Origin: a virus
Taxonomy: Duplodnaviria > Heunggongvirae > Uroviricota > Caudoviricetes
Reading direction: 5' to 3' (one strand)
IMG/VR virus record: IMGVR_UViG_3300025859_000003
DNA length: 64,000 bases
Positions 13,058 through 51,803 of the stretch are shown here, in pieces. The notes beneath the pieces are model-generated. The model made no database searches, was not told the origin of the DNA, and saw only the letters and a list, made by a program, of their open reading frames with translations. Within the stretch, counting starts at the first letter, position 1, and every line of letters begins with the position of its first letter. A program made the translations under genes and the position numbers.

Positions 13058-13087
13058 GTAAATCTCCTTTCTTTCCTACACCTTCTT

Positions 13088-13108
13088 AGGCCGTATGTGG
13101 CTGCAGAC
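13088..13108. repeat. 21-bp palindrome copy
   Basis: TGGCTGCAGACTCTGCAGCCA. Confidence 0.7.
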
Positions 13109-13115
13109 TCTGCAG

Positions 13116-13148
13116 CCACGGCGGGACTAAAAAGAAAGCCCCCCGGTT
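13116..13148 (-). terminator. intrinsic terminator
   Basis: GCCCCCC-loop-GGGGGGC with TTTCTTTTT on minus strand, just past stop of 13166..14068. Confidence 0.65.
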
Positions 13149-13165
13149 AGAGGGGGCTGTTCTTC

Positions 13166-14068
13166 TTATTCTTCCAGTGCCATGGGGTCCGGGATGTGTC
13201 CAGCCAAACCTTGTTTGTGGAGGGCACTGAGGTCGTCGTAGGCGGGGTTGATTTTAACGTCCATCTCGTTCCACTGGAAATCGAGCGAACCCCGAAGATG
13301 CCTTCGAACGATCACGTCGCATTCACCGGTGGAGGGATTCTTACGTTTATGCTGGCGAACCCAGTGCACAAGCCTTTTGATTCTATCGCCCTTCTTGACC
13401 TTATCTCTGATTTCCCAGAGCTCCATTAGAGATTCAGCTGAGACGAACCACCGAACACCAGGAGCTTCACCTAGCTTGATATCAACCGTCCACCACATGT
13501 TTTCCGTCCACTGAAGGCCCAGCGCGATACCTAACTGGCGGGCGTACGCTTTTTCCATGTTTTCGAGATGTCCTGGGACGTAGTCTCCTCCGTGCTTTTC
13601 AACCCACTTCCATCCACCTTTGGCTATGCTTCCTTGTGTGTTTCCACAGCCCCAGATGGTATCACTTCCTTCCCAGGTCCCGTCGACGATGTTCAGCCTG
13701 ACGTCAGTAACCTTCGCCATGAACGGAAGTATCTTTACCCCGCGAGCTTGGGCGGGAGAAATGCTCTTGACCCTGATGATTCCATACATGTCAGAACGAC
13801 GTCCCTCATCGAAGTTGTCAATCACCATGCCGACGTTGATTTTCCCGTTCAGATCTTTAGGTGTGACGTCGGTGAAAATACCAACGTTTTCGGAGTCTGA
13901 GGTAAGCCCTGCCACCATCGGGTGAGAGGCTCCGATCTTTTTCCAGTTGAGCCGCTTGTTGGCTGGGGTGTATTGTTTATTTACCTCTTTCCCTCCAATG
14001 GCGAGCAGGTAGACGAGTTTTTCCAGGTCCTCGTCGTTAGGCATGTTTGTCATTTCAAATCCTTTCAT
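13166..14068 (-). CDS. hypothetical protein
   Basis: 300-aa ORF. Confidence 0.55.
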   Translation of the reverse strand: MKGFEMTNMPNDEDLEKLVYLLAIGGKEVNKQYTPANKRLNWKKIGASHPMVAGLTSDSENVGIFTDVTPKDLNGKINVGMVIDNFDEGRRSDMYGIIRVKSISPAQARGVKILPFMAKVTDVRLNIVDGTWEGSDTIWGCGNTQGSIAKGGWKWVEKHGGDYVPGHLENMEKAYARQLGIALGLQWTENMWWTVDIKLGEAPGVRWFVSAESLMELWEIRDKVKKGDRIKRLVHWVRQHKRKNPSTGECDVIVRRHLRGSLDFQWNEMDVKINPAYDDLSALHKQGLAGHIPDPMALEE

Positions 14069-14086
14069 TGAAAAGAGAAGGCCCTC

Positions 14087-14356
14087 TTAGGAGGGCCTTC
14101 TTGACTTGCGGTTGATTGATGGTCTGGGTGCCGAACGGCTGTGGATGAACGGGTCTGCCATCGCGGCGAAGTAGGTGATGAACGGCAGCGTCGAGGCTCG
14201 CCGCGGCTTCTTGGCGTACTCGCGAGCCCGTTCTTCCTTGTACGCCTGCTCCTCTGCGTACTCGATCTGGGTCAGGCCGCCGCGGGGACCGCAGCACCTC
14301 TTGTACTTCTTACCGCTGTCACAGGTGCACGGTCCATTAGGTCCTGAATACTTCAT
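14087..14356 (-). CDS. SEC-C motif protein
   Basis: Track ORF 14087..14419, ATG 14356 with AAAGGAG; PCTCDSGKKYKRCCGP matches SEC-C metal-binding motif (CxC.SGKKYK.CCG). Confidence 0.55.
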   Translation of the reverse strand: MKYSGPNGPCTCDSGKKYKRCCGPRGGLTQIEYAEEQAYKEERAREYAKKPRRASTLPFITYFAAMADPFIHSRSAPRPSINRKSRRPS

Positions 14357-14523
14357 GCCGGCTCCTTTACAGAAAGATGAGAGGGGTGTGCGCGGGGCGG
14401 ATACATTGACGGCTCTCATTCATTTGAGCCACCTCCGAGAAAGCCCCTTCGTCCGTGTGTTCCGCCGCGCTACTACGATAGGCGCCTATCTTATGTTCAC
14501 GCTGCCGAGCACACCCCTTACTG

Positions 14524-15024
14524 CTACTCGTCGAGAGCTTCCAGGTACTCTCGACCAGCCTGGACTACCAAGAAGTTGTCGGTGGGGGTCTGGTAGATCA
14601 GCTGACCCCCGTGCAGGAGACTGTGGAACCGGAACGGCTCATCCAATCCGAACCGTTCCAGATCCTGGTCGCCGTACACCCCACAGATGATCGCCTTATC
14701 CAGCATCCTCTTGGCCGCCTGCTTCTCCAGGAGAACGTACCAGGACTGGAAATCGATGATGCGCTCGGGGGTGTCGTCGCGGTAGATGTACTCCCGCGTT
14801 TCCGTCTTCACCGCCATGAAACGGCGGAAAGACGGATCCCTGCCGTAGACCAGCGGCGAATCGTTCCAGATGACTCCCTGGACGTGCCCGCTCTTGGTCA
14901 ACTCAAGCTGGCCCTCACGAGCCCCGGTAAGGATCATGTTCTTCCACAAGAGATTGAACGGCTCGTTGTAGTAGTCTTGCCCCCAAAGCGGGGCGATCTT
15001 GCGAATGACTCGGGACACGGTCAT
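14524..15024 (-). CDS. hypothetical protein
   Basis: 166-aa ORF. Confidence 0.5.
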   Translation of the reverse strand: MTVSRVIRKIAPLWGQDYYNEPFNLLWKNMILTGAREGQLELTKSGHVQGVIWNDSPLVYGRDPSFRRFMAVKTETREYIYRDDTPERIIDFQSWYVLLEKQAAKRMLDKAIICGVYGDQDLERFGLDEPFRFHSLLHGGQLIYQTPTDNFLVVQAGREYLEALDE

Positions 15025-15056
15025 GTGTTCCTTTCTCCCAGAGGTCTGTGCTCAGA

Positions 15057-15830: not shown

Positions 15831-16085
15831 CTAACCGTTGGCGTCAGGCAACTCGGGAGCCTTCATGTTCTCTGAGATCGAGTTGATGGTGGTCGAAACC
15901 AGGAGGGCAATGAAGCTGATGGGCCAGGTGACGGTGCCGATGAGACCGACGACGATGCCGGCAACCCACCCCAGCCGGTTGTCCTGGAAGGTGTTGTAGG
16001 CCCTGCGGAAGGCCGGCACGCCGAAGCGGGCACCGATCAGGATGTAGATGCCGCATCCGATGACGAACAGGATTGTGGTAAGCAT
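15831..16085 (-). CDS. small multi-pass membrane protein
   Basis: Track ORF 15831..16124, ATG 16085 preceded by AAAGGAGAA; MLTTILFVIGCGIYILIGA... Confidence 0.5.
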   Translation of the reverse strand: MLTTILFVIGCGIYILIGARFGVPAFRRAYNTFQDNRLGWVAGIVVGLIGTVTWPISFIALLVSTTINSISENMKAPELPDANG

Positions 16086-16135
16086 GTCATTTCTCCTTTT
16101 CTGAGGAACCAAGTTTCCTCTCACTTTCTTAGGCC

Positions 16136-16163
16136 GTAAAAAAGAAGCCCCCTATGCGGGGGC
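16136..16163 (-). terminator. intrinsic terminator
   Basis: GCCCCC-GCATA-GGGGGC then TTCTTTTTT on minus strand. Confidence 0.6.
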
Positions 16164-16652
16164 CCCTTTCTGTGGCTGCAGAGTCTGCGGCCATCGTTCC
16201 GGTCTTATGGTAAGGCCCACGTTATTCAGCCAGGTTTTGACCGTGATGTTGGACCCATCATGGTCGACGACCGCGAGGCCGGGGCTCACGATGCCCAGCT
16301 CCACGGTGCGGAGAACCGCCTCCTGCAGGGACTTGCTCGGAGGTGAATAACACCAACCGGAGTCGTATCCACTTAGACCATTGGCCCACCGGTAATAGAC
16401 CTGAGACCTCCCCTCGCTGTCACAATACCAGAGGTCGCGACCCCCCTGCATGTACTCGCGGCATTGGTAGTGACCGAGAAACTTACAGCAGACGCACCCT
16501 TTGAAGTGTTCAAACCGAGGTTTTCCCAGGATCACCTTTGGAGTAACCCCCATTACTTCTGCAAAGAGTTCAATCTCCCGGAGGCGTGCCTCGTAAAGAC
16601 CGCCGGGAGTCATTAGCTTCAGCAGTTCTTCTCTGTCCATTCTTTCCCCCAT
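16152..16652 (-). CDS. Cys-rich hypothetical protein
   Basis: 166-aa ORF; C-terminus reads through palindrome copy 16173-16193. Confidence 0.45.
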   Translation of the reverse strand: MGERMDREELLKLMTPGGLYEARLREIELFAEVMGVTPKVILGKPRFEHFKGCVCCKFLGHYQCREYMQGGRDLWYCDSEGRSQVYYRWANGLSGYDSGWCYSPPSKSLQEAVLRTVELGIVSPGLAVVDHDGSNITVKTWLNNVGLTIRPERWPQTLQPQKGAPA

Positions 16653-16675
16653 AAAAGAAGTAGCCCCCGAAGGGG

Positions 16676-17137
16676 CTACTTGTTCAGGAGCTCGGGCTCC
16701 TGATCCACGCCGTGTCTTAACATCAGCTCTTCGGTCCTTCGGATGCCTTCTTTCAGGATTGCCCGGCCGGGATCATCCTCTTCGAGCTCGGCCAGGTTCT
16801 TTTCCAGCTGTTGTTTCTGTTTGTTCAAGAAGATCATCAGGAACTCCTCCGCGTCGGCGTAGTCCCTGTCGGCCTTCCGCATTTCCTCTTCCCGCTTCTG
16901 CTCCTTTCTGCGAGATTCTTCTTCGGCGGCCTTGATCCTGTCGTTCTCTCGCCGGCGCTCCTCCTGGAGTTCGGGGCTGAGGTAGTAGATCAGCAACCCG
17001 ATCGGCCACAGGAAAGCCGATAGGAAGATCACCAAGGCGCGGTGCTCCATGTCCTCCGCCAGAGCAGTTTCACACTGCCAGGAAGTGTAGACAGCCACGA
17101 TCATGTAGACCGCGACAACTGCAAGTATCCACTCCAC
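16676..17137 (-). CDS. N-terminal TM plus charged coiled-coil protein
   Basis: 153-aa ORF; two hydrophobic helices then ERRRENDRIKAAEEESRRKEQKREEEMRK. Confidence 0.5.
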   Translation of the reverse strand: MEWILAVVAVYMIVAVYTSWQCETALAEDMEHRALVIFLSAFLWPIGLLIYYLSPELQEERRRENDRIKAAEEESRRKEQKREEEMRKADRDYADAEEFLMIFLNKQKQQLEKNLAELEEDDPGRAILKEGIRRTEELMLRHGVDQEPELLNK

Positions 17138-17161: not shown

Positions 17162-17353
17162 TTAGTAAGTGTGGCCGGGATACTTTACCCATGCCCCATC
17201 CTTCTTCGTCCTCAGGAGGGTTCGCTTTATGCCGAACTTTCGTTTCTGCGTGAGGTACCACGATGCGGCCTGAAGCTCGTTGTCGAAGTACAGGGTGCCG
17301 GTAGGATCCTCCACTTTGTGGGTCGAAGATGATGACTCCTGTTTGGTGATCAT
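17162..17353 (-). CDS. small hypothetical protein
   Basis: Track ORF to 17386; ATG 17353 preceded by AAAGGAGG. Confidence 0.4.
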   Translation of the reverse strand: MITKQESSSSTHKVEDPTGTLYFDNELQAASWYLTQKRKFGIKRTLLRTKKDGAWVKYPGHTY

Positions 17354-17424
17354 TCGAAAACCTCCTTTCACCTTCTTAGGCCGCATCTGGCCACTAAAAA
17401 GAGAGCCCCGAAGGGCTCTCTGTT

Positions 17425-17778
17425 CTAGAAGACCAGCTCGACCATGACCGACCCCATGTCGACCATGGCTTCCTTGGCGTCATCCGGGAAGCCTTCAAGC
17501 CTGTTGTAGGCGTAGGCCAGGGATTCCCGCCAGAGTTCGGCGCTGACGCCGGCGTCGACCTGGTCGACCAGGAAATCGGAGCGGACCGATCCGATGTGCT
17601 GGTCGATCGCCTCGGAGCTGTCGAAGCCGTGCTCGACGAAGTATTCGCAGGCGCGAATGAATCCGGGGCGCTCCATGATCTTGATGACCTTGTCGTGGAC
17701 GTCCTCACGGCCCACGGTTTTGAAGACCTCTACGTTCCTGCGGAACTGATCGATGACCCGTTTGACCTTGGAATCCAT
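17425..17778 (-). CDS. hypothetical protein
   Basis: Track ORF to 17814; ATG 17778 preceded by AAAGGAGAAGG. Confidence 0.5.
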   Translation of the reverse strand: MDSKVKRVIDQFRRNVEVFKTVGREDVHDKVIKIMERPGFIRACEYFVEHGFDSSEAIDQHIGSVRSDFLVDQVDAGVSAELWRESLAYAYNRLEGFPDDAKEAMVDMGSVMVELVF

Positions 17779-17838
17779 GACCTTCTCCTTTGAAAGAAGT
17801 AATTTCCCTCTCACCTTCTTAGGCCATGGAACTTATGG

Positions 17839-18465
17839 CTAGTTGAGCCCCTTCTTCTTGTTCAGGAAGTCATCGAAGCGGCCACTGAGTGTCACTTCGT
17901 TCTTGATCTTGCCCCACTTGTTGGTTTCGGGATCAAGGCTCGGCTTGCCGTCCTGGTCGCGGGTGATATCGATGAACTTGGCCCAGTTGCCCCAGATGGT
18001 TTCCAGGGAGAACCAGACCTTTTCCTTGGCGCCGGGCATTTTCTCCATCGAGCCGTAGAGCTCTGTGTACAGCGTCCGGATGTTGATGACGACCCGGCTG
18101 ATCAATTTCAAGGCTTCTTGATCGGAGACCGCGATGTCGTTGAGTGTGATGTTCATGTGCTTCATGAAGCTGTCGTGGTCAGCGGCCCAGATCTCGGACA
18201 CGAAGAGGACAGCCTGGGTACCCTTGTCGCTGGCGGCCTTGCGGATGGCATCTCCAAGGATGTCTCGGTTCTTGCCTTTGGCCGGCGGCATGTCGATGGC
18301 GATGATGGTCCCCTCACCACTGCCGTCGATCACGATGGCTTCGGCAAAGCGGAGCTTGCCTTTTGCCAGGAACCATTCCTGGATGTGTTTGTCGAACTCC
18401 TCCACCTGTTTCTTGATTTGCTCAGGTAGGGGCACATTGGTGTCGATCAGGTCTTGGATTTTCAA
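17839..18465 (-). CDS. hypothetical protein
   Basis: 208-aa ORF, TTG start with AAAGGAGAAGAG. Confidence 0.5.
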   Translation of the reverse strand: MKIQDLIDTNVPLPEQIKKQVEEFDKHIQEWFLAKGKLRFAEAIVIDGSGEGTIIAIDMPPAKGKNRDILGDAIRKAASDKGTQAVLFVSEIWAADHDSFMKHMNITLNDIAVSDQEALKLISRVVINIRTLYTELYGSMEKMPGAKEKVWFSLETIWGNWAKFIDITRDQDGKPSLDPETNKWGKIKNEVTLSGRFDDFLNKKKGLN

Positions 18466-18561
18466 CTCTTCTCCTTTTCAAAAGGGTTTCGGTACACCTT
18501 CTTAGGCCATCTCAACCAACAGCTCTTGATAAAGACTTTGGACCAAGACGAACTAAAAAAC

Positions 18562-18951
18562 ATGACCAAGCCTACGATTGTAAGGGTTCCCGGATTAGCC
18601 GAATCGGTGGACAAACTAGGTGAAGCTTCCGAGAACAAGGTAATTGAAGAGATAGTTCAGGTCCTGGAACGTCTTGGCTTTGGCCCTCCACCAGATGGAG
18701 GCCCCGGAGGGTTTTATGTGTTGATAGGACAGGGAGATCCCAGACGCTCTGGCTCCTCTTCTGGAACACCAGACATTCTTGTTTTGACTACTGAGCGATG
18801 TTTTCCTTTTGAGGTGAAACGTCGAGATAGGAAGGCCCAGATGTCGGAAGCGCAATACGCCATGTGGGAGCGTGGGTGTCTACATGTCGTGAACTGCGCT
18901 GATCAGGTCCGGTCAGTGATACTAGGGGAATTGACAAAAACTATCAGATGA
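18562..18951 (+). CDS. VRR-NUC domain nuclease (PD-(D/E)xK)
   Basis: Track ORF 18454..18951, ATG 18562; GTPDILVLTTERCFPFEVKRRDRKAQMSEAQYAMWERGCLHVV fits VRR-NUC pattern G.PD...f.E.K...g.ls..Q..w...G; lone plus-strand gene inside minus block. Confidence 0.6.
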   Translation: MTKPTIVRVPGLAESVDKLGEASENKVIEEIVQVLERLGFGPPPDGGPGGFYVLIGQGDPRRSGSSSGTPDILVLTTERCFPFEVKRRDRKAQMSEAQYAMWERGCLHVVNCADQVRSVILGELTKTIR

Positions 18952-18952
18952 G

Positions 18953-18974
18953 GTAAGCCTCTACCGAGGCTTAC
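18953..18974 (+). other. perfect 9-bp stem hairpin after VRR-NUC stop
   Basis: GTAAGCCTC-TACC-GAGGCTTAC; no T-tract. Confidence 0.4.
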
Positions 18975-19116
18975 GTCACACCTAAAATCCAAAGTTTTAG
19001 TGAACGACAGCGAAGTTCAGGGCTTCTAAGGGAGCTCCGGCCAAAACTCTCGTTTGCACGGTGGTCACTGGATCGGACAGATTCTGTGCTGGTAAAAAGA
19101 AAAGCCCCGAAAGGGG

Positions 19117-19380
19117 CTATTCTTCTTCGATGTCGTTAGGGTTACCCAGCGGTCCTCTGCCCGCTCGTAAGAACAACCACCTGTCCAGCCACTCCCGTAG
19201 GACCTCGGCCTGGTCAGGGTTCAGCTCGATGTGGAAATGGTTCATCTTGTTGTTCATGTCCGGTGTGTACAGGAAAACGGCAATCGGTCCTTCCCCGTGA
19301 TCATCATGAGAGATCGAGAGATGGTCGTGATTCTCCGCCCGGATGACCTCGGTCATAGCGAACTTCTTCTTGTCAGACAT
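19117..19380 (-). CDS. hypothetical protein
   Basis: 87-aa ORF; terminator hairpin AGCCCC-GAAA-GGGGCT downstream. Confidence 0.45.
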   Translation of the reverse strand: MSDKKKFAMTEVIRAENHDHLSISHDDHGEGPIAVFLYTPDMNNKMNHFHIELNPDQAEVLREWLDRWLFLRAGRGPLGNPNDIEEE

Positions 19381-22490: not shown

Positions 22491-22536
22491 AAAAACCTCC
22501 TTTCCTTGTTTCCTTAGACCGTAAAAAGAAGAGCCA

Positions 22537-23478: not shown

Positions 23479-23532
23479 GTAAGTCTTTCTCTACTTCCTT
23501 AGCTCGTAAAAAGGAGCCCCTGGGGGAGCTCC

Positions 23533-24819: not shown

Positions 24820-24894
24820 GACGTTCTCCTTTGGGGTATTGAATTTCTCCTATCCTCTTAGACCGTAAAAAAGGAGCCCCTAAGGAGCTCCTTG

Positions 24895-24915
24895 TGGCTG
24901 CAGAGTCTGCCGCCA
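24895..24915. repeat. 21-bp palindrome copy
   Basis: TGGCTGCAGAGTCTGCCGCCA. Confidence 0.65.
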
Positions 24916-24916
24916 T

Positions 24917-26653: not shown

Positions 26654-26682
26654 TCTGAGTTCCTTTCGACTGAAAAAGAAAA

Positions 26683-26703
26683 TGGCTGCAGAGTCTGCAG
26701 CCA
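26683..26703. repeat. 21-bp palindrome copy
   Basis: TGGCTGCAGAGTCTGCAGCCA (perfect). Confidence 0.7.
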
Positions 26704-26911
26704 TTTGAGTGATGACGGCGGGGACTTCAGCAGTGAGCGCAGTCCCCGGTTCTACCACCGCGCTGTCCCTGTACCGATCCACGCACCGCGGTTCCTTCAA
26801 GCCATGGAGCACAGCTTTTGGCCGTGCCCTGTAGTCCAAACGGCGTCAATGCCTCCTACGGCCTCGGTACACCGGCCTCACACTTACTCCCGCCCTATTG
26901 GGTCACCGCCA

Positions 26912-27184
26912 TCAATTCCTGAAGATCTGGGAGCGCCGGGGTATTTTGACTTTCCGCCGGCGGCCTTTCCACCACGGGCCTTTCCACTCCATCAGATCGT
27001 AGTAGTTGTAGCCCTCCATGTTGCGCTGGAATTCGGCCGCATGCTCTGCGCTGTCGAAGACCATGGCCTTGGCTGGAAACGGCCAGGGCAAGATCTTGCT
27101 GAAGGGCATCGGATGTGGTTTGTCGGTAAACCCGCTGCAGAGGACGTAGTCACCAGCCACAAGTACAAACCGGGCTGTTTTCAT
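26912..27184 (-). CDS. hypothetical protein
   Basis: 90 aa. Confidence 0.45.
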   Translation of the reverse strand: MKTARFVLVAGDYVLCSGFTDKPHPMPFSKILPWPFPAKAMVFDSAEHAAEFQRNMEGYNYYDLMEWKGPWWKGRRRKVKIPRRSQIFRN

Positions 27185-29847: not shown

Positions 29848-29979
29848 CTACTCCTTGATTATGGTGAACTTCTTGCGTTTCTTGATAAGGTGCCAGGCCG
29901 CCCGGCTGTTATCCACGACCCGCTTGCGTTCAGCTTCGAACTCATCGTGGTAGTTCCTGACCGCCTGCTTTACAGACAT
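29848..29979 (-). CDS. small basic protein (43 aa)
   Basis: Track ORF to 30087; AAGGAGGACGTTC ATG at 29979. Confidence 0.35.
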   Translation of the reverse strand: MSVKQAVRNYHDEFEAERKRVVDNSRAAWHLIKKRKKFTIIKE

Positions 29980-30040
29980 GAACGTCCTCCTTGAACGATC
30001 CGATGAAGTACTTCTTCCGCCTACTCTCTTAGGCCCTATA

Positions 30041-30061
30041 TGGCCGCAGACTCTGCAGCCA
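30041..30061. repeat. 21-bp palindrome copy in divergent intergenic region
   Basis: TGGCCGCAGACTCTGCAGCCA. Confidence 0.7.
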
Positions 30062-30085
30062 CGGCTGGCTATACTGACTGATGTC

Positions 30086-31912
30086 ATGGCGATGCGGCTG
30101 CCAATGGATTCACCCCAGGAGAACCCGCTCTACCTCCGGGACCTCCCTGAGGAAGAGCGGCGCCGGCTCGTTGGTGCATTGTTGCAGCGATTCCTGCTCG
30201 AACAAGAGGCACGTAAAGCGATGGCGGAGCACGAGAAGAAGCTGATCCTGCAGAAGATGATGGCCAGCCGCGACGGTCAGAAGACGGCGGGAGACCTTCT
30301 GAAGAAAGCACTTATTGGTGTCAATTTTCCGTTGTGGAGCGGGGATCGGTGGTCCTTGAACTTCTCGATTCCCCAGCTTCTTTCGATAAGCCGTAGAATG
30401 GGCGGTCCGGATGTGATTACCACCCCGGAAGAAGATGCCGCCTGGAAAACCCACCTTGGCGTTGGCCTGGGTGGTCCCATGCTCGGTCTTGAGCCTCCCC
30501 TTACTCGCCGCAAGCAAATCATGGAAAGGCAAGCCAAAGAGAGAGGGGCTGCAGAAGGGGAGGTTCCCCGTGAAAAGACCGCGGGTCCTATCACCTCGCT
30601 GCTGAAGCACCCGTACACACCGTGGGTAGGCGGTGGAGCCGCTCTCGGCGCCCTTAGCGGTGCCGTTACCGACGAAGACAAAGTTATCCGTGAGAACCGG
30701 GCATCCAGGCTTGCCAGGATCCTTCAGGGAGCCGCCGGTGGAGCTGTCTCCGGTGCGTCTCTGAAGATGATGAAGGACATGTTCCTTCCCTCAACCGGTA
30801 ACGTTTCGAATCTTCGCAGGATGCTTCAGGAAGGCGTGACCGGTGATGAGTGGAAGCACCAGGCTCAGAAGGCTGTGGACCTGGGGAAGGTTCAGTCTGA
30901 GAAGGCCAAAAAGATGGAGAACATAGGGCTCGCGGAGAAGCTCAAAGGGCTTATTTCCGGCGGACCCAAGGTTCCGACTCCTGATGAGCTGAGCCAGTGG
31001 TACAAGCAGTCGTCTGTGGCCAGGGTCCTGTTCAAGAACGCGGCTCTTCCTCCTGGGATGAAGCCCGAACACCTTAGCTCCCTGATCGGCGCCGGCATCG
31101 GCGGCCTCACCGGGCTCGTCGGAGCCAGGGCCACTGAAGACAAGGACGAAGGCTACGGATCGAAGCTGCTCAAGCGCCTCGGCCTTGGTGCAGCAGGCCT
31201 GGCCGGCGGTGCTATGCTTGGTGGTGCTTTCCCGATGGCCAAGGCTTTCTACCAGCATGGCGGCGGCCTGAAAGGTCTCAAGAACCCTGTTGCTCGCGGA
31301 GCTATGTGGGAAGAGGCCAAGGCTGCTCCGATCGCGGCTGCGAAGCAGCTCCCCGGTTGGCTGAAAGGCATGTTCATCAGTCACCCGAAGACCGCCCAGG
31401 ACCAGTTCCCGCTCCGTGAGCGTGCGCTCCGGGAATGGAATCCCAAGACTATCCTGCAGGACGTCTCCGCTGGTGAGCCCAGGGATGTCTCCCCTGAAGA
31501 GTACACTCGTCTGAGGTCGGAAGGACTTCACCCGATTTCAACGATCCTCGGCGCCATTCTTGGCGGTTCCGGCGGAGCTGCTGTAGGCGGTAAACTTCTG
31601 CCGACCGGATCAAAGCTTCAGGCCCCGCTTGCTCTTGCCGGCATGGCCGGCGGTGGCATCCTTGGCCACATGCTGCAGAACATGCGTATGAAGAGCAAAG
31701 CCCGCGGCGAGATGGAAGAGTTTCAGATGAAGTTCCCGGAGTTCATGCGGAAAGAAATGGAGAGCATTCCGCCGGAACATCTGGAAGCCATTCTCGCCCA
31801 GAATCCTATGCAGAGGCTGACCGACGATGTTCCGTACCAGACCACGACCGAACATCTTCGTCGAGGCCTGCCGAAGGTTCCTGCCCGGCCGATGTTGAAG
31901 CACGAGTTCTAA
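30086..31912 (+). CDS. large Gly/Ala-rich glycine-zipper protein
   Basis: Track ORF 29978..31912; ATG 30086; repeated GxxxGxxxG blocks (LGLGAAGLAGGAMLGGAF, ILGGSGGAAVGG, LAGMAGGGILG); plus-strand island in minus block. Confidence 0.5.
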   Translation: MAMRLPMDSPQENPLYLRDLPEEERRRLVGALLQRFLLEQEARKAMAEHEKKLILQKMMASRDGQKTAGDLLKKALIGVNFPLWSGDRWSLNFSIPQLLSISRRMGGPDVITTPEEDAAWKTHLGVGLGGPMLGLEPPLTRRKQIMERQAKERGAAEGEVPREKTAGPITSLLKHPYTPWVGGGAALGALSGAVTDEDKVIRENRASRLARILQGAAGGAVSGASLKMMKDMFLPSTGNVSNLRRMLQEGVTGDEWKHQAQKAVDLGKVQSEKAKKMENIGLAEKLKGLISGGPKVPTPDELSQWYKQSSVARVLFKNAALPPGMKPEHLSSLIGAGIGGLTGLVGARATEDKDEGYGSKLLKRLGLGAAGLAGGAMLGGAFPMAKAFYQHGGGLKGLKNPVARGAMWEEAKAAPIAAAKQLPGWLKGMFISHPKTAQDQFPLRERALREWNPKTILQDVSAGEPRDVSPEEYTRLRSEGLHPISTILGAILGGSGGAAVGGKLLPTGSKLQAPLALAGMAGGGILGHMLQNMRMKSKARGEMEEFQMKFPEFMRKEMESIPPEHLEAILAQNPMQRLTDDVPYQTTTEHLRRGLPKVPARPMLKHEF

Positions 31913-31921
31913 GGATCTGAA

Positions 31922-32713
31922 ATGCCCTTTCAGTCACAGGCTCAACGCAGGTTCATGTACGCCAGGCATCCTGAGATGGCCAAGGAGTGGGAAGCCCATA
32001 CCCCGAAGGGTAAGAAGCTCCCTGAGCACAAGAAAAAGAAGAAAGAGGCTGAGATGAAAACAGCCAAGAAAGACATGCCCCACTTCACCGAACAGGATCG
32101 TCCTGAGAAGGTCAAGGACATCTACCGCGCTCTGAAGCGCGAGCACCCTGGGATGCCGGCGGAGATGAAGGCCCGTATCGCGGCCAGGCAGGGCAAGCCG
32201 GGCAAACAGAAGCAGGGGCCGCCGTACAAGGCTCCGATCAAGGAGCGGTACAAAGGAGCTAACTTAGGCTTAGCCCTGCCTATGTCGATGGGATTGTCCG
32301 GCGCCGCGCTGGGCCACTCCGCGGTGAGGCCTGGCGCCGAGAGTGAACATTCTGTGGCAGGCCCGGTAGCCAATCTTCTGTCGACGCTTAGCGGTCCCGC
32401 CGCAGGGCTCCTGGCCGGCGGTAGCATGCCGTCTTCTTATTGGAATTTGGTGAAAAGAGTGGCCGGTTCACCTGGTTCTGGTCTTCCAAGGGCGCTGGCA
32501 GCCGGGGGCATGACCCTGGCGCCATCTCTTCTTGGCGGGGCTGCCGCAGGCGGGCTGTCAGGCCTTCTGGCTCACCTCGGTAAAAAGAAACCGCCCGAGG
32601 AAGCAGACCTGTCTGATCAGCCTACAGAAGCCTCCACAGTGATGCCTGATCAGAAGATGGCAAGCCTTCGGGACATCGTGACCGCCGGTCTCACTATGGT
32701 CAAGGAACAGTAG
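31922..32713 (+). CDS. Lys-rich N-terminus, Gly/Ala-rich C-terminal protein
   Basis: 263 aa; LGLALPMSMGLSGAALG, LAGGSM, LLGGAAAGGLSGLLAHLG. Confidence 0.5.
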   Translation: MPFQSQAQRRFMYARHPEMAKEWEAHTPKGKKLPEHKKKKKEAEMKTAKKDMPHFTEQDRPEKVKDIYRALKREHPGMPAEMKARIAARQGKPGKQKQGPPYKAPIKERYKGANLGLALPMSMGLSGAALGHSAVRPGAESEHSVAGPVANLLSTLSGPAAGLLAGGSMPSSYWNLVKRVAGSPGSGLPRALAAGGMTLAPSLLGGAAAGGLSGLLAHLGKKKPPEEADLSDQPTEASTVMPDQKMASLRDIVTAGLTMVKEQ

Positions 32714-32861
32714 GTATGCGTAAGCTTGGTACAGACCGGCCTGACTTGATGCTCCGGTTCCTCGATGAGGACTTCCGGAAGCACTCGACCCATTTCTTCC
32801 GCCAGCTCGGAAGAGGTCGTTCTGTAGAAGATGCCCCCGGCAAGCTCGCTAAAGAACGGCC

Positions 32862-32892
32862 CAAGGATCTAAAAAAGAAGGCCCTATGAGGG
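32862..32892. terminator. bidirectional intrinsic terminator
   Basis: AAAAAAGAAGGCCC-TATGA-GGGGCCTTCTTTTG. Confidence 0.65.
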
Positions 32893-33759: not shown

Positions 33760-33794
33760 TACTGCCTCCTTTCTTCTCTACCTTCTTAGGCCGT

Positions 33795-33878
33795 ATTTCG
33801 AGCAAGAAGAAAGCCGAGCTCGGGGCTCGGCTTTTGGACCAGTAAAAAGAAAGTCCCCTGCTACAGGGGGTCTTTCTT
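33795..33878 (-). terminator. two consecutive intrinsic terminator hairpins
   Basis: GACCCCCTGTAGCAGGGGAC+TTTCTTTTT and AGCCGAGCCCCGAGCTCGGCT+TTCTTCTT on minus strand. Confidence 0.6.
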
Positions 33879-37530: not shown

Positions 37531-37599
37531 GGTTATTCCTTTTGAACTAAGAGAAAAGGCCCGAAGGCCTAAATTCTCTCCATCTGCTTAGACCACACA

Positions 37600-37620
37600 T
37601 GGCTGCAGAGTCTGCAACCA
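37600..37620. repeat. 21-bp palindrome copy
   Basis: TGGCTGCAGAGTCTGCAACCA. Confidence 0.65.
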
Positions 37621-37624
37621 CGGG

Positions 37625-42770: not shown

Positions 42771-42821
42771 AACCTCCTTCCCAGGAAAAAGAAAAGGGCC
42801 CGCCGAGTGGCGGGCCCCTGG

Positions 42822-44038: not shown

Positions 44039-44093
44039 GGCGGCTCCTAAAATTTTTCCGCCTAATGCGGATCATCGTCTTAGGCCCTAAAAA

Positions 44094-44118
44094 GAAAGGG
44101 CTCTGGGAGCCCTTTCTG
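44094..44118 (-). terminator. intrinsic terminator
   Basis: GGGCTCCCAGAGCCC + TTTCTTTTT on minus strand. Confidence 0.6.
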
Positions 44119-44139
44119 TGGCTGCAGACTCTGCGGCCA
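44119..44139. repeat. 21-bp palindrome copy
   Basis: TGGCTGCAGACTCTGCGGCCA. Confidence 0.7.
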
Positions 44140-44553
44140 CTAATTCCCTCCGCCCAGGACCTCGATCGTGGAGTTGCACCCATCCTCTACGACATGCACC
44201 ACCATCAACTCGTATCGCTTGTACAGCCAGGAGACTATGCGGTTTCTGAAAAGCTGGACAACAAAGAGAATCAACAGCATGGCGCCAGGAAGAAGAGTGG
44301 CCAGCGGAAGCCAGGTTGTCTCCGTGAGGATAGACAACAAGAGGGTAGCGAGAACAGCGGCGTGTCCGGAAATGATGAGACCGTGAATGTGCATGTTACA
44401 TCTGTGGAGGAGAAACAGGTGCACGATACGGATGAACGCCTCAAACTGGATCGAAGTGAGAGCAACCTTGCCGTTCGTAACCTGAATCGCTCCAACCATC
44501 TTTTGTATCTCGTCGGTGGTTACGATCACCGATCTTCCGGCTGTAAACATCAC
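44140..44553 (-). CDS. membrane protein
   Basis: 137 aa, hydrophobic. Confidence 0.5.
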   Translation of the reverse strand: MMFTAGRSVIVTTDEIQKMVGAIQVTNGKVALTSIQFEAFIRIVHLFLLHRCNMHIHGLIISGHAAVLATLLLSILTETTWLPLATLLPGAMLLILFVVQLFRNRIVSWLYKRYELMVVHVVEDGCNSTIEVLGGGN

Positions 44554-46034: not shown

Positions 46035-46790
46035 CTACTCCAATCGAGCCTTGGCTTCAAGCTTCTCGTCGCCGTCTGAAAGGCTCCCGCTCTTGATCCC
46101 CGCGGAAGATAGGGTGTCGATCCCGATGTACCGGTACTTGTCCTCTTCGTTAGGCTCGGTGAAAGTCTTTTCCAGCTCCCCAGAACCAACCATCGTGTCA
46201 AGTACGAAGGCTATGAAGCCGTTTTCAGGATCAGACCACTCACCCCTCATCTTGTTCTTGCCATCTGACGGATCCTTGAAGAAGATCCCGTTCTTTCGGT
46301 AACGGGCACAGATCGCCCTAACTTCATCGCGTTTGACTTTGCCTTTCAAAGCCTCAGCGATTTTGTTTGAGTTAGTGCTTTGAACTCGGGCCATGGCTAC
46401 GAGCAAAACAGCGGCAGCATTCCACCCTGGAGTTCCGGGTTCAAAATCCGAAGCCATAACTTCCAGGAGTCCATCCAAGGTACCCAGCTTCGTTTCTACC
46501 TCGACGGACTTGATGAAGTTTTCCAGCGCAAGCCGGATGAGGCTTTTATATGCAGCCAAACTGGAAGGCTTCAGAGGGTTTTTACGAATCGTATTGCACC
46601 GCTGAACCAGGTCGTCAAGGTCGATAGTTCGGACATCCGCGGCCTCTTCAATTGTCATGACAGCAAGTGATTTTTTGACCGCATTCAATCGATTACGCCA
46701 TCGCTCCATGTCGGAATAGTACTTCTGCGCCTTGACCATCTCCTCGCAGTTATCCAGTAGACGGGCAACGCTGAAATCAAATTTCTTCAT
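46035..46790 (-). CDS. hypothetical protein
   Basis: 251 aa. Confidence 0.55.
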   Translation of the reverse strand: MKKFDFSVARLLDNCEEMVKAQKYYSDMERWRNRLNAVKKSLAVMTIEEAADVRTIDLDDLVQRCNTIRKNPLKPSSLAAYKSLIRLALENFIKSVEVETKLGTLDGLLEVMASDFEPGTPGWNAAAVLLVAMARVQSTNSNKIAEALKGKVKRDEVRAICARYRKNGIFFKDPSDGKNKMRGEWSDPENGFIAFVLDTMVGSGELEKTFTEPNEEDKYRYIGIDTLSSAGIKSGSLSDGDEKLEAKARLE

Positions 46791-46837
46791 GACGTAAACC
46801 CTTTCTTACTACCTTAGGCCAGCTAAGCTAAAAGAAA

Positions 46838-46858
46838 TGGCCGCAGAGTCTGCAGCCA
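46838..46858. repeat. 21-bp palindrome copy
   Basis: TGGCCGCAGAGTCTGCAGCCA. Confidence 0.7.
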
Positions 46859-46865
46859 TCTCCTT

Positions 46866-47315: not shown

Positions 47316-47324
47316 TGCTCCTCT

Positions 47325-49476: not shown

Positions 49477-49484
49477 GGTTCTGC

Positions 49485-49868: not shown

Positions 49869-49884
49869 CCTTTCTCCTTCGTCG

Positions 49885-50100
49885 TTAGATGAATTCTTTG
49901 GACGGATCGATCCCCAGCTCCTCAAGACGCTTGAGGAGCCTCTCAGCGGACAACCCGGTAAACATGCTCGAATCCTCGCTGATGACGGAGTATATGTCCA
50001 GGTCCCCGTTCTTGTGGACATCCAGGAACCATCCTAGTGCGTGGTCTTTGCCCCACAGCACGTGCCGCCCATCAGCGAGCTTCTCATGATGCTGGCTCAT
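49885..50100 (-). CDS. small hypothetical protein
   Basis: Track ORF to 50142; start MSQHHEK. Confidence 0.4.
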   Translation of the reverse strand: MSQHHEKLADGRHVLWGKDHALGWFLDVHKNGDLDIYSVISEDSSMFTGLSAERLLKRLEELGIDPSKEFI

Positions 50101-50102
50101 CA

Positions 50103-50603
50103 CTACTCCTCCGGTTCGGGTAAGCCAACACTGGCGTCCCACCGATTCGTGTGCTTCAGAAACTTGACAGCCAGAGCGTACATGGCTGCAGCCTGCGGTC
50201 CCTGGAACGGAGTGCTCATCGGCAGCCCATGTACGGAGTTACGGTGCTTCAACGCACACACCGGACATGACGCGTACGTCCCTTCTGTAGACACCGACTG
50301 GGCGATTAGTGCCAACGGGAAGTCGATCTTACAGATCTTACACTTTTCCAGGTCCTCTGGAGCAAGCGTGTCGAACTGTTCTTCCAGCCCCGGAAAGTTG
50401 TGTTCAAAATACAGGTAGGTCCCGTCTTCTTGTTGAATGCGGACCTTGCCCAGGTATTCCAGTTCTTCGTCAGCCTCCGAATCGAAAGGAATCCCTATCT
50501 CGGAGAGCTCATGAAGCGGGATCCAGATGAACACATCCTCGTGGCCCTTGGGAGCCGCGTACATCAGCTCGATGTTCTTGGCCTTCGTATATTTTTCAGC
50601 CAC
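50103..50603 (-). CDS. hypothetical protein
   Basis: 166 aa. Confidence 0.5.
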   Translation of the reverse strand: MAEKYTKAKNIELMYAAPKGHEDVFIWIPLHELSEIGIPFDSEADEELEYLGKVRIQQEDGTYLYFEHNFPGLEEQFDTLAPEDLEKCKICKIDFPLALIAQSVSTEGTYASCPVCALKHRNSVHGLPMSTPFQGPQAAAMYALAVKFLKHTNRWDASVGLPEPEE

Positions 50604-50619
50604 TCACCCCCCTTTCATG

Positions 50620-50656
50620 TAAATAAAGAAGAGGGGCTTTCGCCCCCGCTTCTTCT
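50620..50656 (-). terminator. intrinsic terminator
   Basis: AGAAGCGGGGGCGAAAGCCCCTCTTCT + TTATTTA on minus strand. Confidence 0.55.
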
Positions 50657-50672
50657 CGGCAACGCAGGACCT

Positions 50673-51140
50673 TTAGGTGGTCTGGGGTGTAGACCGGGCC
50701 CTGCTCTGGTATTCCCCAGCGCCTGTCCCCTCTTTCGGAAGGACGTTCATGGTGACCTCCTTCTGCTTAGGCGCCAGCAGCCTCTCTGCGAGGCCGCTAA
50801 TGAGTGTGTTGAACCGAACAACCTTGAACTTCTCCCTGATCGCCAACTTGATCAGGTAGACGGCGTCCGCCGCCAGGTCTTTGTCCCGTTCGAGGTTCTC
50901 GTACAGGACCATGGCGTCCGCCGACTTGAGAATCGGTGGAAGAACCTCTTCAACGAACAGTTCCAGGAACTCTGGATCTGATCGGTTGCAATCGTGAAGC
51001 CACTTCAGCCAGCAGCTGAAGTTTTCGAAGTCCTCGTCGTCGAGGACTCCTGATTCCTTGACGATCCTGAGGACCGTCATCGCGCCAACGGATAACCCCT
51101 TATCCGTTAACGACTTACCAGTGCCGAGTATACCTTGCAT
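50673..51140 (-). CDS. hypothetical protein
   Basis: 155 aa. Confidence 0.5.
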   Translation of the reverse strand: MQGILGTGKSLTDKGLSVGAMTVLRIVKESGVLDDEDFENFSCWLKWLHDCNRSDPEFLELFVEEVLPPILKSADAMVLYENLERDKDLAADAVYLIKLAIREKFKVVRFNTLISGLAERLLAPKQKEVTMNVLPKEGTGAGEYQSRARSTPQTT

Positions 51141-51188
51141 TGCTTCACCCCTTTCCGGTGAAAGGCCTATAGATTCCCTTTCACCTCC

Positions 51189-51803
51189 TTAGGCCGGATC
51201 GATCGGGGTTTTTGGGTCACCGCCTCCCATCAGTTGCAGGTTACCGTGAATTTTCATCCAGACGGGAAAGCGCATCTCCCAAAGTTTGAGGGCGAAGACT
51301 TCCCTGGCGCGGTACCGGTCAGACATCTTGTCGGTCAGCCGCGACGACCTCCAAGGCGGACAGATCCGTTTCTTTTCTGACAGCTTCGGTTCAGCCCTGG
51401 AGTTCCTGACCGCCCATGCCAAGGCGTTCTCGGTGCCTCGGATCATGTGAAGCAGGTTGGCCATTTTGGCTACTACCCAGTACAGATGAATCGCCTTCTC
51501 GATGCTTTCGCGGAGTTCACCCTGTATGGGTATCCCGCCGTTCAGGATACTCTGGAGTACCGTCTTACGGTGAACCACCTTGGCGGAGAGCTTGGCGAGG
51601 CCAACCGCACAGCGTGCACGATCTGAGGCGGAACAGCCGTGGTCTCCGATGGCCAACAAAAGGCTAAGTCCCTGCGCCTCGGCAAAGCCGGCGCGGCGGT
51701 ACTCAACCTCAGGAGCGATATTCATCACCGGCAACGAGATGTTGACGTGGTCCAGGAAATCGTCGAACGGGATCCATGGTTTATCTACGGTCATCGCTGA
51801 CAT
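51189..51803 (-). CDS. hypothetical protein
   Basis: Track ORF to 52022; ATG 51803 preceded by AGAAAGGA; first gene of minus block at divergent junction. Confidence 0.5.
   Translation of the reverse strand: MSAMTVDKPWIPFDDFLDHVNISLPVMNIAPEVEYRRAGFAEAQGLSLLLAIGDHGCSASDRARCAVGLAKLSAKVVHRKTVLQSILNGGIPIQGELRESIEKAIHLYWVVAKMANLLHMIRGTENALAWAVRNSRAEPKLSEKKRICPPWRSSRLTDKMSDRYRAREVFALKLWEMRFPVWMKIHGNLQLMGGGDPKTPIDPA

What the first reader, a model, noticed from the sequence alone, without database searches (positions are those of the whole stretch)
13078..51197. Conserved orientation-specific motif TTTTTACGGCCTAAGAAGGTG about 20-40 nt upstream of at least 14 start codons
The motif is seen, always in the sense orientation of the downstream gene, at about 6362(+), 13078-13094(-), 16122-16138(-), 17369-17385(-), 17812-17828(-), 18494-18508(-), 22511-22526(-), 23495-23513(-), 24854-24872(-), 30024-30040(-), 33780-33799(-), 37581-37602(-), 44073-44094(-), 46811-46823(-) and 51183-51197(-). 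Consensus core is ACGG(C/T)CTAAG(A/G)AGGTG, followed within 5-30 nt by an AAAGGAG-type RBS and then ATG/TTG. It usually sits directly after the T-tract of the upstream gene's terminator. This terminator-motif-RBS punctuation is reminiscent of start-associated sequences in cluster K mycobacteriophages, or of a short promoter for a phage-specific RNA polymerase or sigma factor. The embedded AAGAAGG also resembles the T7 gene 10 translational enhancer. It marks a likely co-regulated gene set.
Basis: seen in the sequence. Interest (0 to 1): 0.7.

Follow-up and report, generated by a model that had tools for sequence, protein, structure and literature searches.

The report
Candidate early promoter of RNAP-encoding phage
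The repeated motif is real and is most likely a phage-specific promoter (GGCCTAAG, four bases, then T-purine) that restarts transcription after terminators in the early genes of a 195-kb uncultivated phage that encodes its own fused beta-beta' RNA polymerase.

Summary
All 15 listed sites exist. GGYCTAAG occurs 18 times against 3 expected, 16 of them on the minus strand, and 16 of 18 are followed by N4-T-purine. The conserved unit is GGYCTAAG-N4-TR, not the Shine-Dalgarno-like AAGAAGGTG.

In a relative (AAA ATPase 61% identical, 194-kb contig), GGCCTAAG occurs 22 times in about 90 kb. Almost all copies are co-oriented with small genes, often just after terminators, once in a divergent gap and once before a non-coding stretch. 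The flanks differ and the SD-like half is lost.

The motif lies 24-61 nt upstream of start codons, with a separate RBS in between. No sigma-70-type promoter sits in those gaps.

The window is a slice of a 195,499-bp phage genome. That genome, and the relative, encode a roughly 2,030-aa fused RNAP beta-beta' protein inside the late/packaging gene block.

Best reading: a class-specific promoter for early-type genes, probably read by the phage polymerase. The SAS-like and translational-enhancer readings are not supported.

A 23-bp palindrome (11 copies) lies at gene ends and, at some sites, exactly 4 nt upstream of the motif.

No transcript data were available, so start sites are inferred, not shown.

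The parts
6370..6383 (+). Motif GGCCTAAGCAGATG, after a palindrome and terminator, 42 nt before the GTG at 6415
13079..13092 (-). Motif GGCCTAAGAAGGTG; palindrome ends 4 nt upstream; start codon at 13057
16122..16135 (-). Motif GGCCTAAGAAAGTG directly after a terminator T-tract; start codon at 16085
17369..17382 (-). Motif GGCCTAAGAAGGTG, 13 nt after a terminator; start codon at 17353
17812..17825 (-). Motif GGCCTAAGAAGGTG with no terminator upstream; start codon at 17778
18495..18508 (-). Motif GGCCTAAGAAGGTG with no terminator upstream; TTG start at 18465
22507..22520 (-). Motif GGTCTAAGGAAACA (the only listed site without T at +10) after a terminator; start codon at 22490
23492..23505 (-). 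Degenerate motif GAGCTAAGGAAGTA after a terminator; start codon at 23478
24851..24864 (-). Motif GGTCTAAGAGGATA after a palindrome and terminator; start codon at 24819
30022..30035 (-). Motif GGCCTAAGAGAGTA; palindrome ends 4 nt upstream; in a divergent gap; start codon at 29979
33779..33792 (-). Motif GGCCTAAGAAGGTA after two tandem terminators; start codon at 33759
37581..37594 (-). Motif GGTCTAAGCAGATG; palindrome ends 4 nt upstream; followed by a 5' UTR hairpin that co-varies in L175; start codon at 37530
44073..44086 (-). Motif GGCCTAAGACGATG after a palindrome and terminator; start codon at 44038
46807..46820 (-). Motif GGCCTAAGGTAGTA; the palindrome followed by a T-tract (acting as the terminator hairpin) lies 16 nt upstream; start codon at 46790
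51182..51195 (-). Motif GGCCTAAGGAGGTG; its TAA is the stop codon of the upstream gene; conserved in L082; start codon at 51140
52162..52175 (-). Additional candidate site GGCCTAAGATTTTG at the right edge of the leftward block, conserved in L082
27187..27200 (-). Ambiguous copy GGCCTAAGGAGACG: it acts as the SD 13 nt before the ATG at 27184 and lacks T/R at +10/+11
3128..3141 (+). Copy GGCCTAAGGATGTG inside an ORF, with T/R at +10/+11; possible internal promoter or chance
16366..16379 (-). Copy GGTCTAAGTGGATA inside an ORF, with T/R at +10/+11; possible internal promoter or chance
6293..6315 (.). 23-bp palindrome (degenerate copy) overlapping a stop codon
10588..10610 (.). 23-bp palindrome overlapping a stop codon, followed by a terminator, between convergent genes
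13097..13119 (.). 23-bp palindrome, 4 nt upstream of the motif
16172..16194 (.). 23-bp palindrome, then a terminator, then the motif
24894..24916 (.). 23-bp palindrome right after a stop codon, then a terminator, then the motif
26682..26704 (.). Perfect 23-bp palindrome followed by a T-tract; scored as a terminator
30040..30062 (.). 23-bp palindrome, 4 nt upstream of the motif, in a divergent gap
37599..37621 (.). 23-bp palindrome after the stop codon of the AAA ATPase gene, 4 nt upstream of the motif; conserved in L175
44118..44140 (.). 23-bp palindrome overlapping a stop codon, then a terminator, then the motif
46837..46859 (.). 23-bp palindrome followed by a T-tract, upstream of the motif
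51820..51842 (.). 23-bp palindrome filling a 57-nt divergent gap; conserved in L082

Best explanation
GGYCTAAG-N4-T-R is a class-specific promoter of a roughly 195-kb uncultivated phage. It restarts transcription of short early-type operons (nucleotide metabolism, nucleases, an AAA ATPase and many small ORFs), often just downstream of the previous unit's intrinsic terminator. I infer that GGYCTAAG occupies about -13 to -6 and that the conserved T-purine is -1/+1, which gives 5' UTRs of 14-51 nt that contain the SD. The enzyme that reads it is most likely the phage's own fused beta-beta' multisubunit RNA polymerase. Its gene sits inside the late/packaging block, so it may be delivered with the virion, as in phiKZ or AR9. 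What is shown: the motif statistics, its placement, its conservation in relatives, and the presence of the RNAP gene in the same genomes. What is inferred: promoter activity, the start-site position, which polymerase reads it, and virion delivery.
For: (1) Enrichment, strand bias and intergenic placement are strong.
(2) The core is conserved in diverged relatives while the flanks are not. L093 (AAA ATPase 61% identical) has 9 copies on the gene strand and 0 on the other. About 90 kb of the same 194,114-bp contig holds 22 exact GGCCTAAG, against an expectation of about 2.7. 18 of these have an SD plus an ORF start 19-118 nt downstream on the same strand, against 22% of random positions. In IMG/VR the pattern GGCCTAAGANNNTAGAG hits that contig 8 times and every other contig once.
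(3) The motif is placed where a promoter is needed: after strong terminators, in divergent gaps (L093:1177, L176:24104) and before a non-coding stretch (L093:14096).
(4) Sigma-70-like sites are not enriched in 12-52 kb (3 against 8.1 expected, 4 against 7.3 expected) and none lies in these gaps.
(5) A T-purine lies at a fixed distance from the core, and 5' UTR hairpins begin just after it. One hairpin keeps pairing through a double change between the window and L175.
(6) The genome encodes an RNAP. The window's exact 568-aa protein occurs on a single contig of 195,499 bp, and the fused RNAP P0188 (2,028 aa) has the same longest contig. In the relative, motif sites and the RNAP P0131 are on one contig.
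(7) The motif is absent from about 39 kb of late-type loci of this lineage and from the RNAP/terminase block of the relative.
(8) There is precedent. In RNAP-encoding jumbo phages a conserved motif found bioinformatically upstream of early operons proved to be the virion-RNAP promoter (PMC7598289).
Against: No transcript 5' ends are available, so promoter activity is inferred from placement and conservation. About six terminators in the window are followed by same-strand genes without the motif, so read-through happens and re-initiation is not strictly required. The start-site assignment fails at a few sites: L093:5005 would lose its SD, and three sites have the TAG shifted by 3-4 nt. No specificity factor or sigma was found in the window. 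About 130 kb of the genome was not examined and could hold another polymerase.
Confidence: 0.6

Rival explanations
1. The motif is a promoter, but it is read by the host RNA polymerase, redirected by a phage-encoded sigma-like or adaptor protein or carrying a host alternative sigma. This would resemble T4 late promoters (gp55) or SPO1 gp28/gp34 (these comparisons are from memory).
For: The 8-bp block at about -13 to -6 with no -35 element has the geometry I recall for the T4 late promoter TATAAATA. The structural homologues are T4-like (baseplate proteins, and a Gp23 capsid protein near a distant homologue). All the placement evidence applies equally.
Against: No sigma-like protein was found among about 70 window proteins scanned with Pfam or PHROGs. 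The genome carries a complete beta-beta' catalytic core that needs promoters of its own. A more distant relative (L174) uses canonical TTGACA-N17-TATACT upstream of its small genes, so the motif is specific to this clade.
Confidence: 0.2
2. The motif is an RNA-level signal in the 5' UTR. It could be an endonuclease processing site, a 5' stabiliser of the STAB-SD type, a standby or enhancer site for ribosomes, or an SAS-like translation signal.
For: In the window the 3' half resembles an SD (TAAGAAGGTG against TAAGGAGGTG). The motif is intergenic, sense-oriented and confined to non-structural genes, and an inverted repeat lies upstream at about half the sites, as for SAS/ESAS.
Against: The SD-like half is not conserved in the relative, whereas GGCCTAAG is invariant. 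The distance to the start codon varies from 24 to 61 nt (over 150 nt at L089:6132 and L093:6868), and each gene has its own SD. One copy precedes a region with no ORF. Transcripts stopped by the strong terminators just upstream would not contain the motif.
Confidence: 0.1
3. The motif is a DNA-level site unrelated to transcription start. It could be a binding site for a replication, packaging or partition protein, or the scar of a mobile intergenic cassette that has spread by recombination.
For: The palindrome, terminator and motif recur as a module. Repeated intergenic cassettes that carry promoters and stem-loops are known in T4-type phages (PeSL, from memory).
Against: The flanks of the copies are not homologous, and only the 8-bp core and the T/R are shared. 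The one strain-level indel examined (L076) is not bounded by the motif. Strict co-orientation with the downstream gene on both strands of the relative fits gene expression better than replication or packaging.
Confidence: 0.05

Closest known systems
Early-promoter motifs of jumbo phages that encode multisubunit RNAPs (phiKZ and AR9 virion RNAPs; also the AR9 late promoter A(-11)ACA-N6-T-A/G(+1))
   Same: The phage encodes its own beta/beta'-type RNAP. A short conserved motif, found bioinformatically, sits upstream of many early-type operons. The layout of an upstream element, a fixed spacer and then T(-1)-purine(+1) resembles the AR9 late promoter (PMC7598289).
   Different: The known motifs are AT-rich, whereas this one has a GC-rich half (GGCC). 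phiKZ and AR9 RNAPs are split into 4-5 polypeptides and are highly diverged. Here beta and beta' are fused in one roughly 2,030-aa protein with strong Pfam matches and a canonical NADFDGD motif. Only one RNAP gene was seen, and virion packaging is untested.
mReC: the metagenomic Caudovirales clade that encodes cellular-type beta and beta' (Weinheimer & Aylward 2020, PMC7481178)
   Same: These are uncultivated tailed phages, some near or above 200 kb, with beta and beta' recognisable by cellular HMMs and an NADFDG catalytic motif, found among other places in engineered environments.
   Different: Membership was not tested by phylogeny, and the contig names were not found in the paper's supplements. 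The paper does not mention promoters or sigma factors (0 occurrences).
Start-associated sequences (SAS) and extended SAS of Cluster K mycobacteriophages (PMC3203893)
   Same: An asymmetric motif with one orientation, restricted to non-structural genes, with an inverted repeat just upstream at about half of the sites.
   Different: SAS lie 3-7 bp from the start codon in the RBS position and contain AGGAG. This motif lies 24-61 nt upstream with a separate SD, and its SD-like part is not conserved.
T4 late promoter TATAAATA read by gp55/gp33 (from memory)
   Same: A single 8-bp element near -10, no -35 element, many copies, and a T4-like structural gene background.
   Different: The sequence differs, the motif marks early-type rather than structural genes, and no gp55 homologue was found in the window.
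T7-like single-subunit RNAP promoters (from memory)
   Same: A contiguous asymmetric motif of about 20 bp, extending into a purine-rich start region (relative: GGCCTAAGACTATAGAG), that often follows terminators.
   Different: No single-subunit RNAP gene was seen. The largest window ORF is 644 aa with no matches.

Membership tests
[quoted passage not shown] | The phage genome encodes its own multisubunit (beta/beta'-type) RNAP | tested here: met
   The relative carries P0131 on the same contig as its motif sites. For the window genome, P0188 and the window's unique 568-aa protein share a 195,499-bp contig. Pfam finds Rpb2_3, Rpb2_6 and Rpb1_1, _2 and _5, and NADFDGD is present.
[quoted passage not shown] | A conserved short motif upstream of presumed early operons, co-oriented with them | tested here: met
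   The motif is absent from the late blocks examined.
[quoted passage not shown] | The motif is centred near -10 of mapped transcription start sites | not testable with these tools
   No transcript data. The -13 to -6 position is inferred from the fixed T/R.
[quoted passage not shown] | AT-rich consensus | tested here: not met
   The core is GGCCTAAG, whereas the review describes AT-rich motifs.
[quoted passage not shown] | The RNAP is packaged in the virion and injected | not testable with these tools
   The only indication is indirect: the RNAP gene lies in a co-directional block with the large terminase and large structural-type genes.
Cluster K SAS/ESAS | A 13-bp motif 3-7 bp upstream of the start codon, occupying the RBS position | tested here: not met
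   The motif is 24-61 nt upstream with a separate SD. Definition taken from PMC3203893.
Cluster K SAS/ESAS | Single orientation, non-structural genes only, inverted repeat upstream of about half of the sites | tested here: met
   8 of the 15 sites have the palindrome upstream.
Sigma-70-type promoter | -35 and -10 hexamers 16-18 bp apart | tested here: not met
   Nothing is conserved at the -35 position in the site alignment, and no consensus match falls in the gaps.
STAB-SD / translational enhancer | Conserved complementarity to the 3' end of 16S rRNA | tested here: not met
   The SD-like half is replaced by ACTATAG, AATATAG or ACCATAG in the relative.
T7-like single-subunit RNAP promoter | A cognate single-subunit RNAP gene in the genome | tested here: inconclusive
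   None was found in the window or the fetched loci. About 130 kb of the genome was not seen.
T4-type late promoter | A gp55-like sigma, and the motif upstream of late (structural) genes | tested here: not met
   No sigma-like hit. The motif marks non-structural genes and is nearly absent from the structural blocks.
mReC clade (for the phage itself) | Beta and beta' detectable with cellular HMMs on a Caudovirales contig | tested here: met
   Terminase (GpA_ATPase) and baseplate neighbours are present.
mReC clade (for the phage itself) | Placement inside the deep-branching mReC RNAP clade | not tested
   No phylogeny was run, and the sample ids were not found in the paper's supplements.

The most novel reading that the evidence does not exclude
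GGCCTAAG-N4-TR is the first promoter consensus for the fused, cellular-type beta-beta' RNA polymerase of an mReC-like phage lineage. The enzyme would be delivered with the virion to transcribe early genes. The co-evolving 23-bp palindrome, placed exactly 4 nt upstream at a subset of sites, would be an operator or hairpin that gates those promoters. This would give a defined promoter-polymerase pair for a deep-branching multisubunit RNAP whose initiation mechanism, and whether it uses any sigma, is unknown.
Probability: 0.35. Interest if true: 0.75.

Novelty: new member of a known kind. Interest (0 to 1): 0.6.

Why it matters
Phages with cellular-type beta/beta' polymerases are known only from metagenomes. 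I found nothing in the searchable literature about how these enzymes find their genes. A 14-nt candidate promoter, conserved across lineages whose polymerases are 67-93% identical, makes that question testable. One could synthesise P0188, offer it a 40-bp template, and ask whether it initiates alone or needs a factor. The motif also splits the roughly 195-kb genome into transcription classes, which helps annotate a genome where over 80% of proteins have no family match. If the promoter-polymerase pair works, it could become an orthogonal expression tool.

Tried and rejected
- Megablast of 22 kb against INPHARED phages found no match. tblastn with the AAA ATPase found only distant jumbo-phage ATPases below 35% identity.
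- The IMG/VR scan for GGCCTAAGAAGGTG returned 59 single chance hits, so the window region is not in IMG/VR. The search for related loci with the AAA protein in IMG/VR found nothing.
- The metagenome scan with the AAA alignment returned only relatives at or below 45% identity, which lack the motif. A few CTAAGAAAGTG copies in L111 and L094 were too weak to interpret.
- Pfam or PHROGs scans of about 70 window proteins and 10 flank proteins found no sigma factor and no RNAP in the window. PDB sequence searches with the 644-aa, 1,177-aa and 1,170-aa proteins found nothing.
- Sigma-54, ECF and sporulation-sigma consensus sequences were compared by eye and do not fit.
- The idea that the GTG at the motif's end is an upstream start codon was rejected, because its reading frame relative to the gene is inconsistent.
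- The idea that the motif is part of the terminator was rejected, because 5-6 window sites and several relative sites have no terminator upstream.
- The mobile-cassette idea was tested on the only strain indel (549 bp in L076), which is not bounded by the motif.
- Rfam and tRNA scans of the window and of L093 found nothing.
- A literature search for GGCCTAAG returned only unrelated primer sequences.
- The three GGCCTAAG copies in L257 appear to lie in coding sequence and were not used.

Full report
OBSERVATION. The motif is real. ACGGYCTAAGRAGGTG with up to two mismatches occurs 8 times against 0.11 expected. The core GGYCTAAG occurs 18 times against 2.96 expected, 16 of them on the minus strand. 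A k-mer comparison of intergenic against coding sequence, made without prior assumptions, ranks GGCCTAAG among the most enriched intergenic words. The other top words are the SD, the terminator tail TTTTTAC and a palindrome. Using my own rough gene calls, at least 14 of the 18 copies lie in the roughly 10% of the window that is non-coding (P about 4e-11).

ANATOMY. Aligning the sites shows that information is concentrated in the 8-bp block GGYCTAAG and in a T and a purine at +10/+11 from the C of CTAAG. The C of CTAAG lies 24-61 nt from the start codon, and a separate AAAGGAG-type SD always lies in between. About 10 of the 15 sites directly follow an intrinsic terminator; the rest do not. If the T-R is -1/+1, GGYCTAAG spans -13 to -6 and the 5' UTRs are 14-51 nt. 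Several UTRs start with a hairpin. The hairpin after site 37581-37594 keeps its pairing through a double change (GGCC/GGCC to GACC/GGTC) in a relative whose AAA ATPase is 78% identical (L175).

A SECOND ELEMENT.
- It usually starts at or within a few bases of a stop codon.
- The usual order is stop codon, palindrome, terminator, motif, RBS.
- At 13097, 30040 and 37599 the palindrome ends exactly 4 nt before GGYCTAAG.
- At 26682 and 46837 it is followed by a T-tract and looks like the terminator itself.
- At 51820 it fills a 57-nt divergent gap.
- The same 23-mer occurs in IMG/VR contigs that share no other similarity with the window (L064, L066-L068, L072), there without the motif.

WHAT THE WINDOW IS. 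The window's exact proteins occur on many near-identical contigs from anaerobic-digester-type metagenomes, up to 195,499 bp. The exact 568-aa protein occurs on one contig only, of 195,499 bp. The window is therefore a slice of a phage genome of about 195 kb. Few proteins match any family. The matches on the minus strand (12.6-51.8 kb) are an AAA ATPase, NUDIX, dCTP deaminase, metallophosphoesterase, a 3'-5' exonuclease, an HD phosphohydrolase and an HAD/PNKP-like protein. On the plus strand are a baseplate-module protein, a Band_7 protein, a DnaA_C-domain protein and an HNH protein. The motif therefore marks the block of small non-structural genes.

COMPARATIVE EVIDENCE.
- L082 (568-aa protein 65% identical) keeps site 51182-51195, the copy at 52162-52175 and the palindrome at 51820.
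- L175 keeps the palindrome, the 4-nt spacing and the motif after the AAA ATPase gene.
- The decisive case is a 194,114-bp contig (Ga0248667_100015, equal to IMGVR_UViG_3300022699_000302; AAA ATPase 61% identical). In L093, GGYCTAAG occurs 9 times on the gene strand and never on the other. The copies lie after terminators, in a divergent gap, and once inside a 2.2-kb stretch with no credible ORF.
- An IMG/VR scan with GGCCTAAGANNNTAGAG hit this contig 8 times and every other contig once.
- About 90 kb of that genome holds 22 exact GGCCTAAG (about 2.7 expected). 18 of them have an SD plus an ORF start 19-118 nt downstream on the same strand, against 22% of random positions.
- The consensus in the relative is GGCCTAAGAC(A/T)ATAGAG. 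The core and the T-R are kept, but the SD-like sequence is not.
- The relative has its own version of the palindrome, TTGG(C/T)TGCATC-N-GATGCA(A/G)CCAA. It differs from the window's by symmetric changes. Two copies again sit exactly 4 nt upstream of GGCCTAAG (contig position 41958 and L176:22544).
- A more distant relative (L174, AAA ATPase 39% identical) lacks the motif and has canonical TTGACA-N17-TATACT upstream of its small genes.

THE POLYMERASE. A six-frame search for the catalytic DFDGD signature found NADFDGD in L072, in an ORF of at least 2,717 aa that starts right after a copy of the window-type palindrome. Pfam identifies Rpb2 domains 3 and 6 followed by Rpb1 domains 1, 2 and 5, plus a LAGLIDADG insertion. 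It is a fused beta-beta' RNAP. Homologues of 2,000-3,300 aa form a family on contigs of about 135-195 kb. P0131 (67% identical) lies on the relative's 194,114-bp contig, 54 kb from L093. It sits in a co-directional block of large genes that ends with the large terminase. P0188 (2,028 aa, 93% identical to the L072 ORF) has the same longest contig, 195,499 bp, as the window's proteins. In the 26 kb around the relative's RNAP, the only two motif copies are on the opposite strand, in front of a small leftward block of short genes. None was found in about 39 kb of late-type loci of the window lineage.

MECHANISM. The best reading is a class-specific promoter. It is the only conserved element between strong terminators and the next RBS. 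It is co-oriented with genes on both strands, kept across lineages whose flanks have diverged, and present in divergent gaps and before a non-coding stretch. It is absent from late blocks. Sigma-70-type matches are not enriched in the region (3 against 8.1 expected, 4 against 7.3 expected), and none lies in the gaps concerned. Because the genome carries its own catalytic RNAP core, that enzyme is the most economical reader. Its position in the late/packaging block suggests delivery with the virion and early use, as established for phiKZ and AR9 (PMC7598289). These last steps are inference. The main rival, host RNAP with a phage factor, cannot be excluded, because about 130 kb of the genome was not seen and no specificity factor was identified. 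RNA-level roles (SAS-like, STAB-SD, enhancer, processing site) are disfavoured for three reasons: the SD-like half is lost in the relative, the distance to start codons varies, and one copy has no ORF downstream.

THE PALINDROME. Its half-site TGGYTGCA and its length are conserved between lineages, and its symmetry is kept by paired changes. This fits either a dimeric DNA-binding protein or an RNA hairpin. The fixed 4-nt spacing at five independent promoters in two lineages suggests a regulatory composite centred near -29. Copies right after stop codons, sometimes with a T-tract, suggest a 3'-end hairpin. In the relative, many copies are asymmetric in a way that pairs better on the sense strand. 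I could not decide between these roles.

COMPARISON AND NOVELTY. The kind is known: a promoter specific for a phage polymerase, punctuating early operons. What is new is the lineage and the sequence. The polymerase is a fused, cellular-type beta-beta' enzyme, probably of the metagenomic mReC group (PMC7481178). That paper does not mention promoters or sigma factors, and I found no promoter described for such enzymes in the searchable literature. The motif has a GC-rich half, unlike the AT-rich phiKZ and AR9 early motifs. It does not meet the SAS definition.

LIMITS. There are no transcript data. My gene calls are rough. mReC membership was not tested by phylogeny. The host is unknown.

Noticed in passing
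window 6293-6315, 10588-10610, 13097-13119, 16172-16194, 24894-24916, 26682-26704, 30040-30062, 37599-37621, 44118-44140, 46837-46859, 51820-51842: A 23-bp palindrome, (A/G)TGGCTGCAGA(G/C)TCTGCAGCCA(C/T), with 11 copies against 0.04 expected. It sits at or just after stop codons. At three sites it ends exactly 4 nt before the motif. A diverged version with symmetric changes is present in the 194-kb relative.
   Followed up: partly
L072:3009-11159 (+); relatives L176:10001-16105 and L177:10001-16090: A fused RNAP beta-beta' gene of about 2,030 aa, or at least 2,717 aa in L072 where it carries LAGLIDADG intein-like insertions. It has a canonical NADFDGD motif and lies in the late block upstream of the large terminase. 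In L072 and L177 the palindrome lies immediately upstream of its start.
   Followed up: yes
L176:13284-13304: A copy of the relative's palindrome lies in frame inside the fused RNAP gene at about residue 1,094, near the beta/beta' junction. It may be a relic of a former intergenic region.
   Followed up: no
L093:11928-15723: A Ro60/TROVE-vWA-like gene is followed by 2.2 kb with no credible ORF, no tRNA call and no Rfam hit. The stretch contains two circularly permuted tRNA-like modules (T-arm, closed acceptor stem, D-arm), GAACCG/GAATCG repeats, and one GGCCTAAG copy in front of a roughly 130-nt foldable RNA (z = -1.7). These may be Y-RNA-like partners of Ro60. A class I aminoacyl-tRNA synthetase (tRNA-synt_1c) is encoded nearby.
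   Followed up: partly
window 11955-12634 and 18615-19116: Two long non-coding gaps (680 and 502 nt) with no Rfam or tRNA hit. On the minus strand the first holds a sigma-70-like TTGACA-N17-TAGGGT, followed by a long hairpin (GGCGAAGAAGACAC...GTGTCTTCTTCGCC) and terminators.
   Followed up: no
window 52187-52192, 53763-53768, 58670-58675 (+): TATAAT, TATACT and GATACT boxes, each followed by G, lie 21-27 nt upstream of three plus-strand baseplate-block genes. The first is conserved in L082. They may be a separate class of promoters with only a -10 element.
   Followed up: no
window 29978-32889 (+): A plus-strand island of three genes (about 600-644, 263 and 57 aa) lies inside the minus-strand block. 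The largest protein has no Pfam, PHROG or PDB sequence match.
   Followed up: partly
window 29888-29899 compared with L076:19124-19672: One strain (3300025861 Ga0209605_1000319) carries a 549-bp insertion with an extra small ORF and a terminator. Otherwise the strains are 99.99-100% identical over 20 kb.
   Followed up: yes
window, terminators of the minus-strand block (e.g. 13137-13158, 16658-16681, 17400-17421, 19103-19118, 42794-42819): The intrinsic terminators end in a stereotyped TTTTTA(C/G) tail. About six of them are followed by a same-strand gene with no motif, which implies read-through.
   Followed up: partly
L067:66-2618: An intein-containing ORF (Hint plus LAGLIDADG) lies on a palindrome-bearing IMG/VR contig of the same lineage. 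Together with the RNAP insertions, this suggests the lineage carries several inteins.
   Followed up: no
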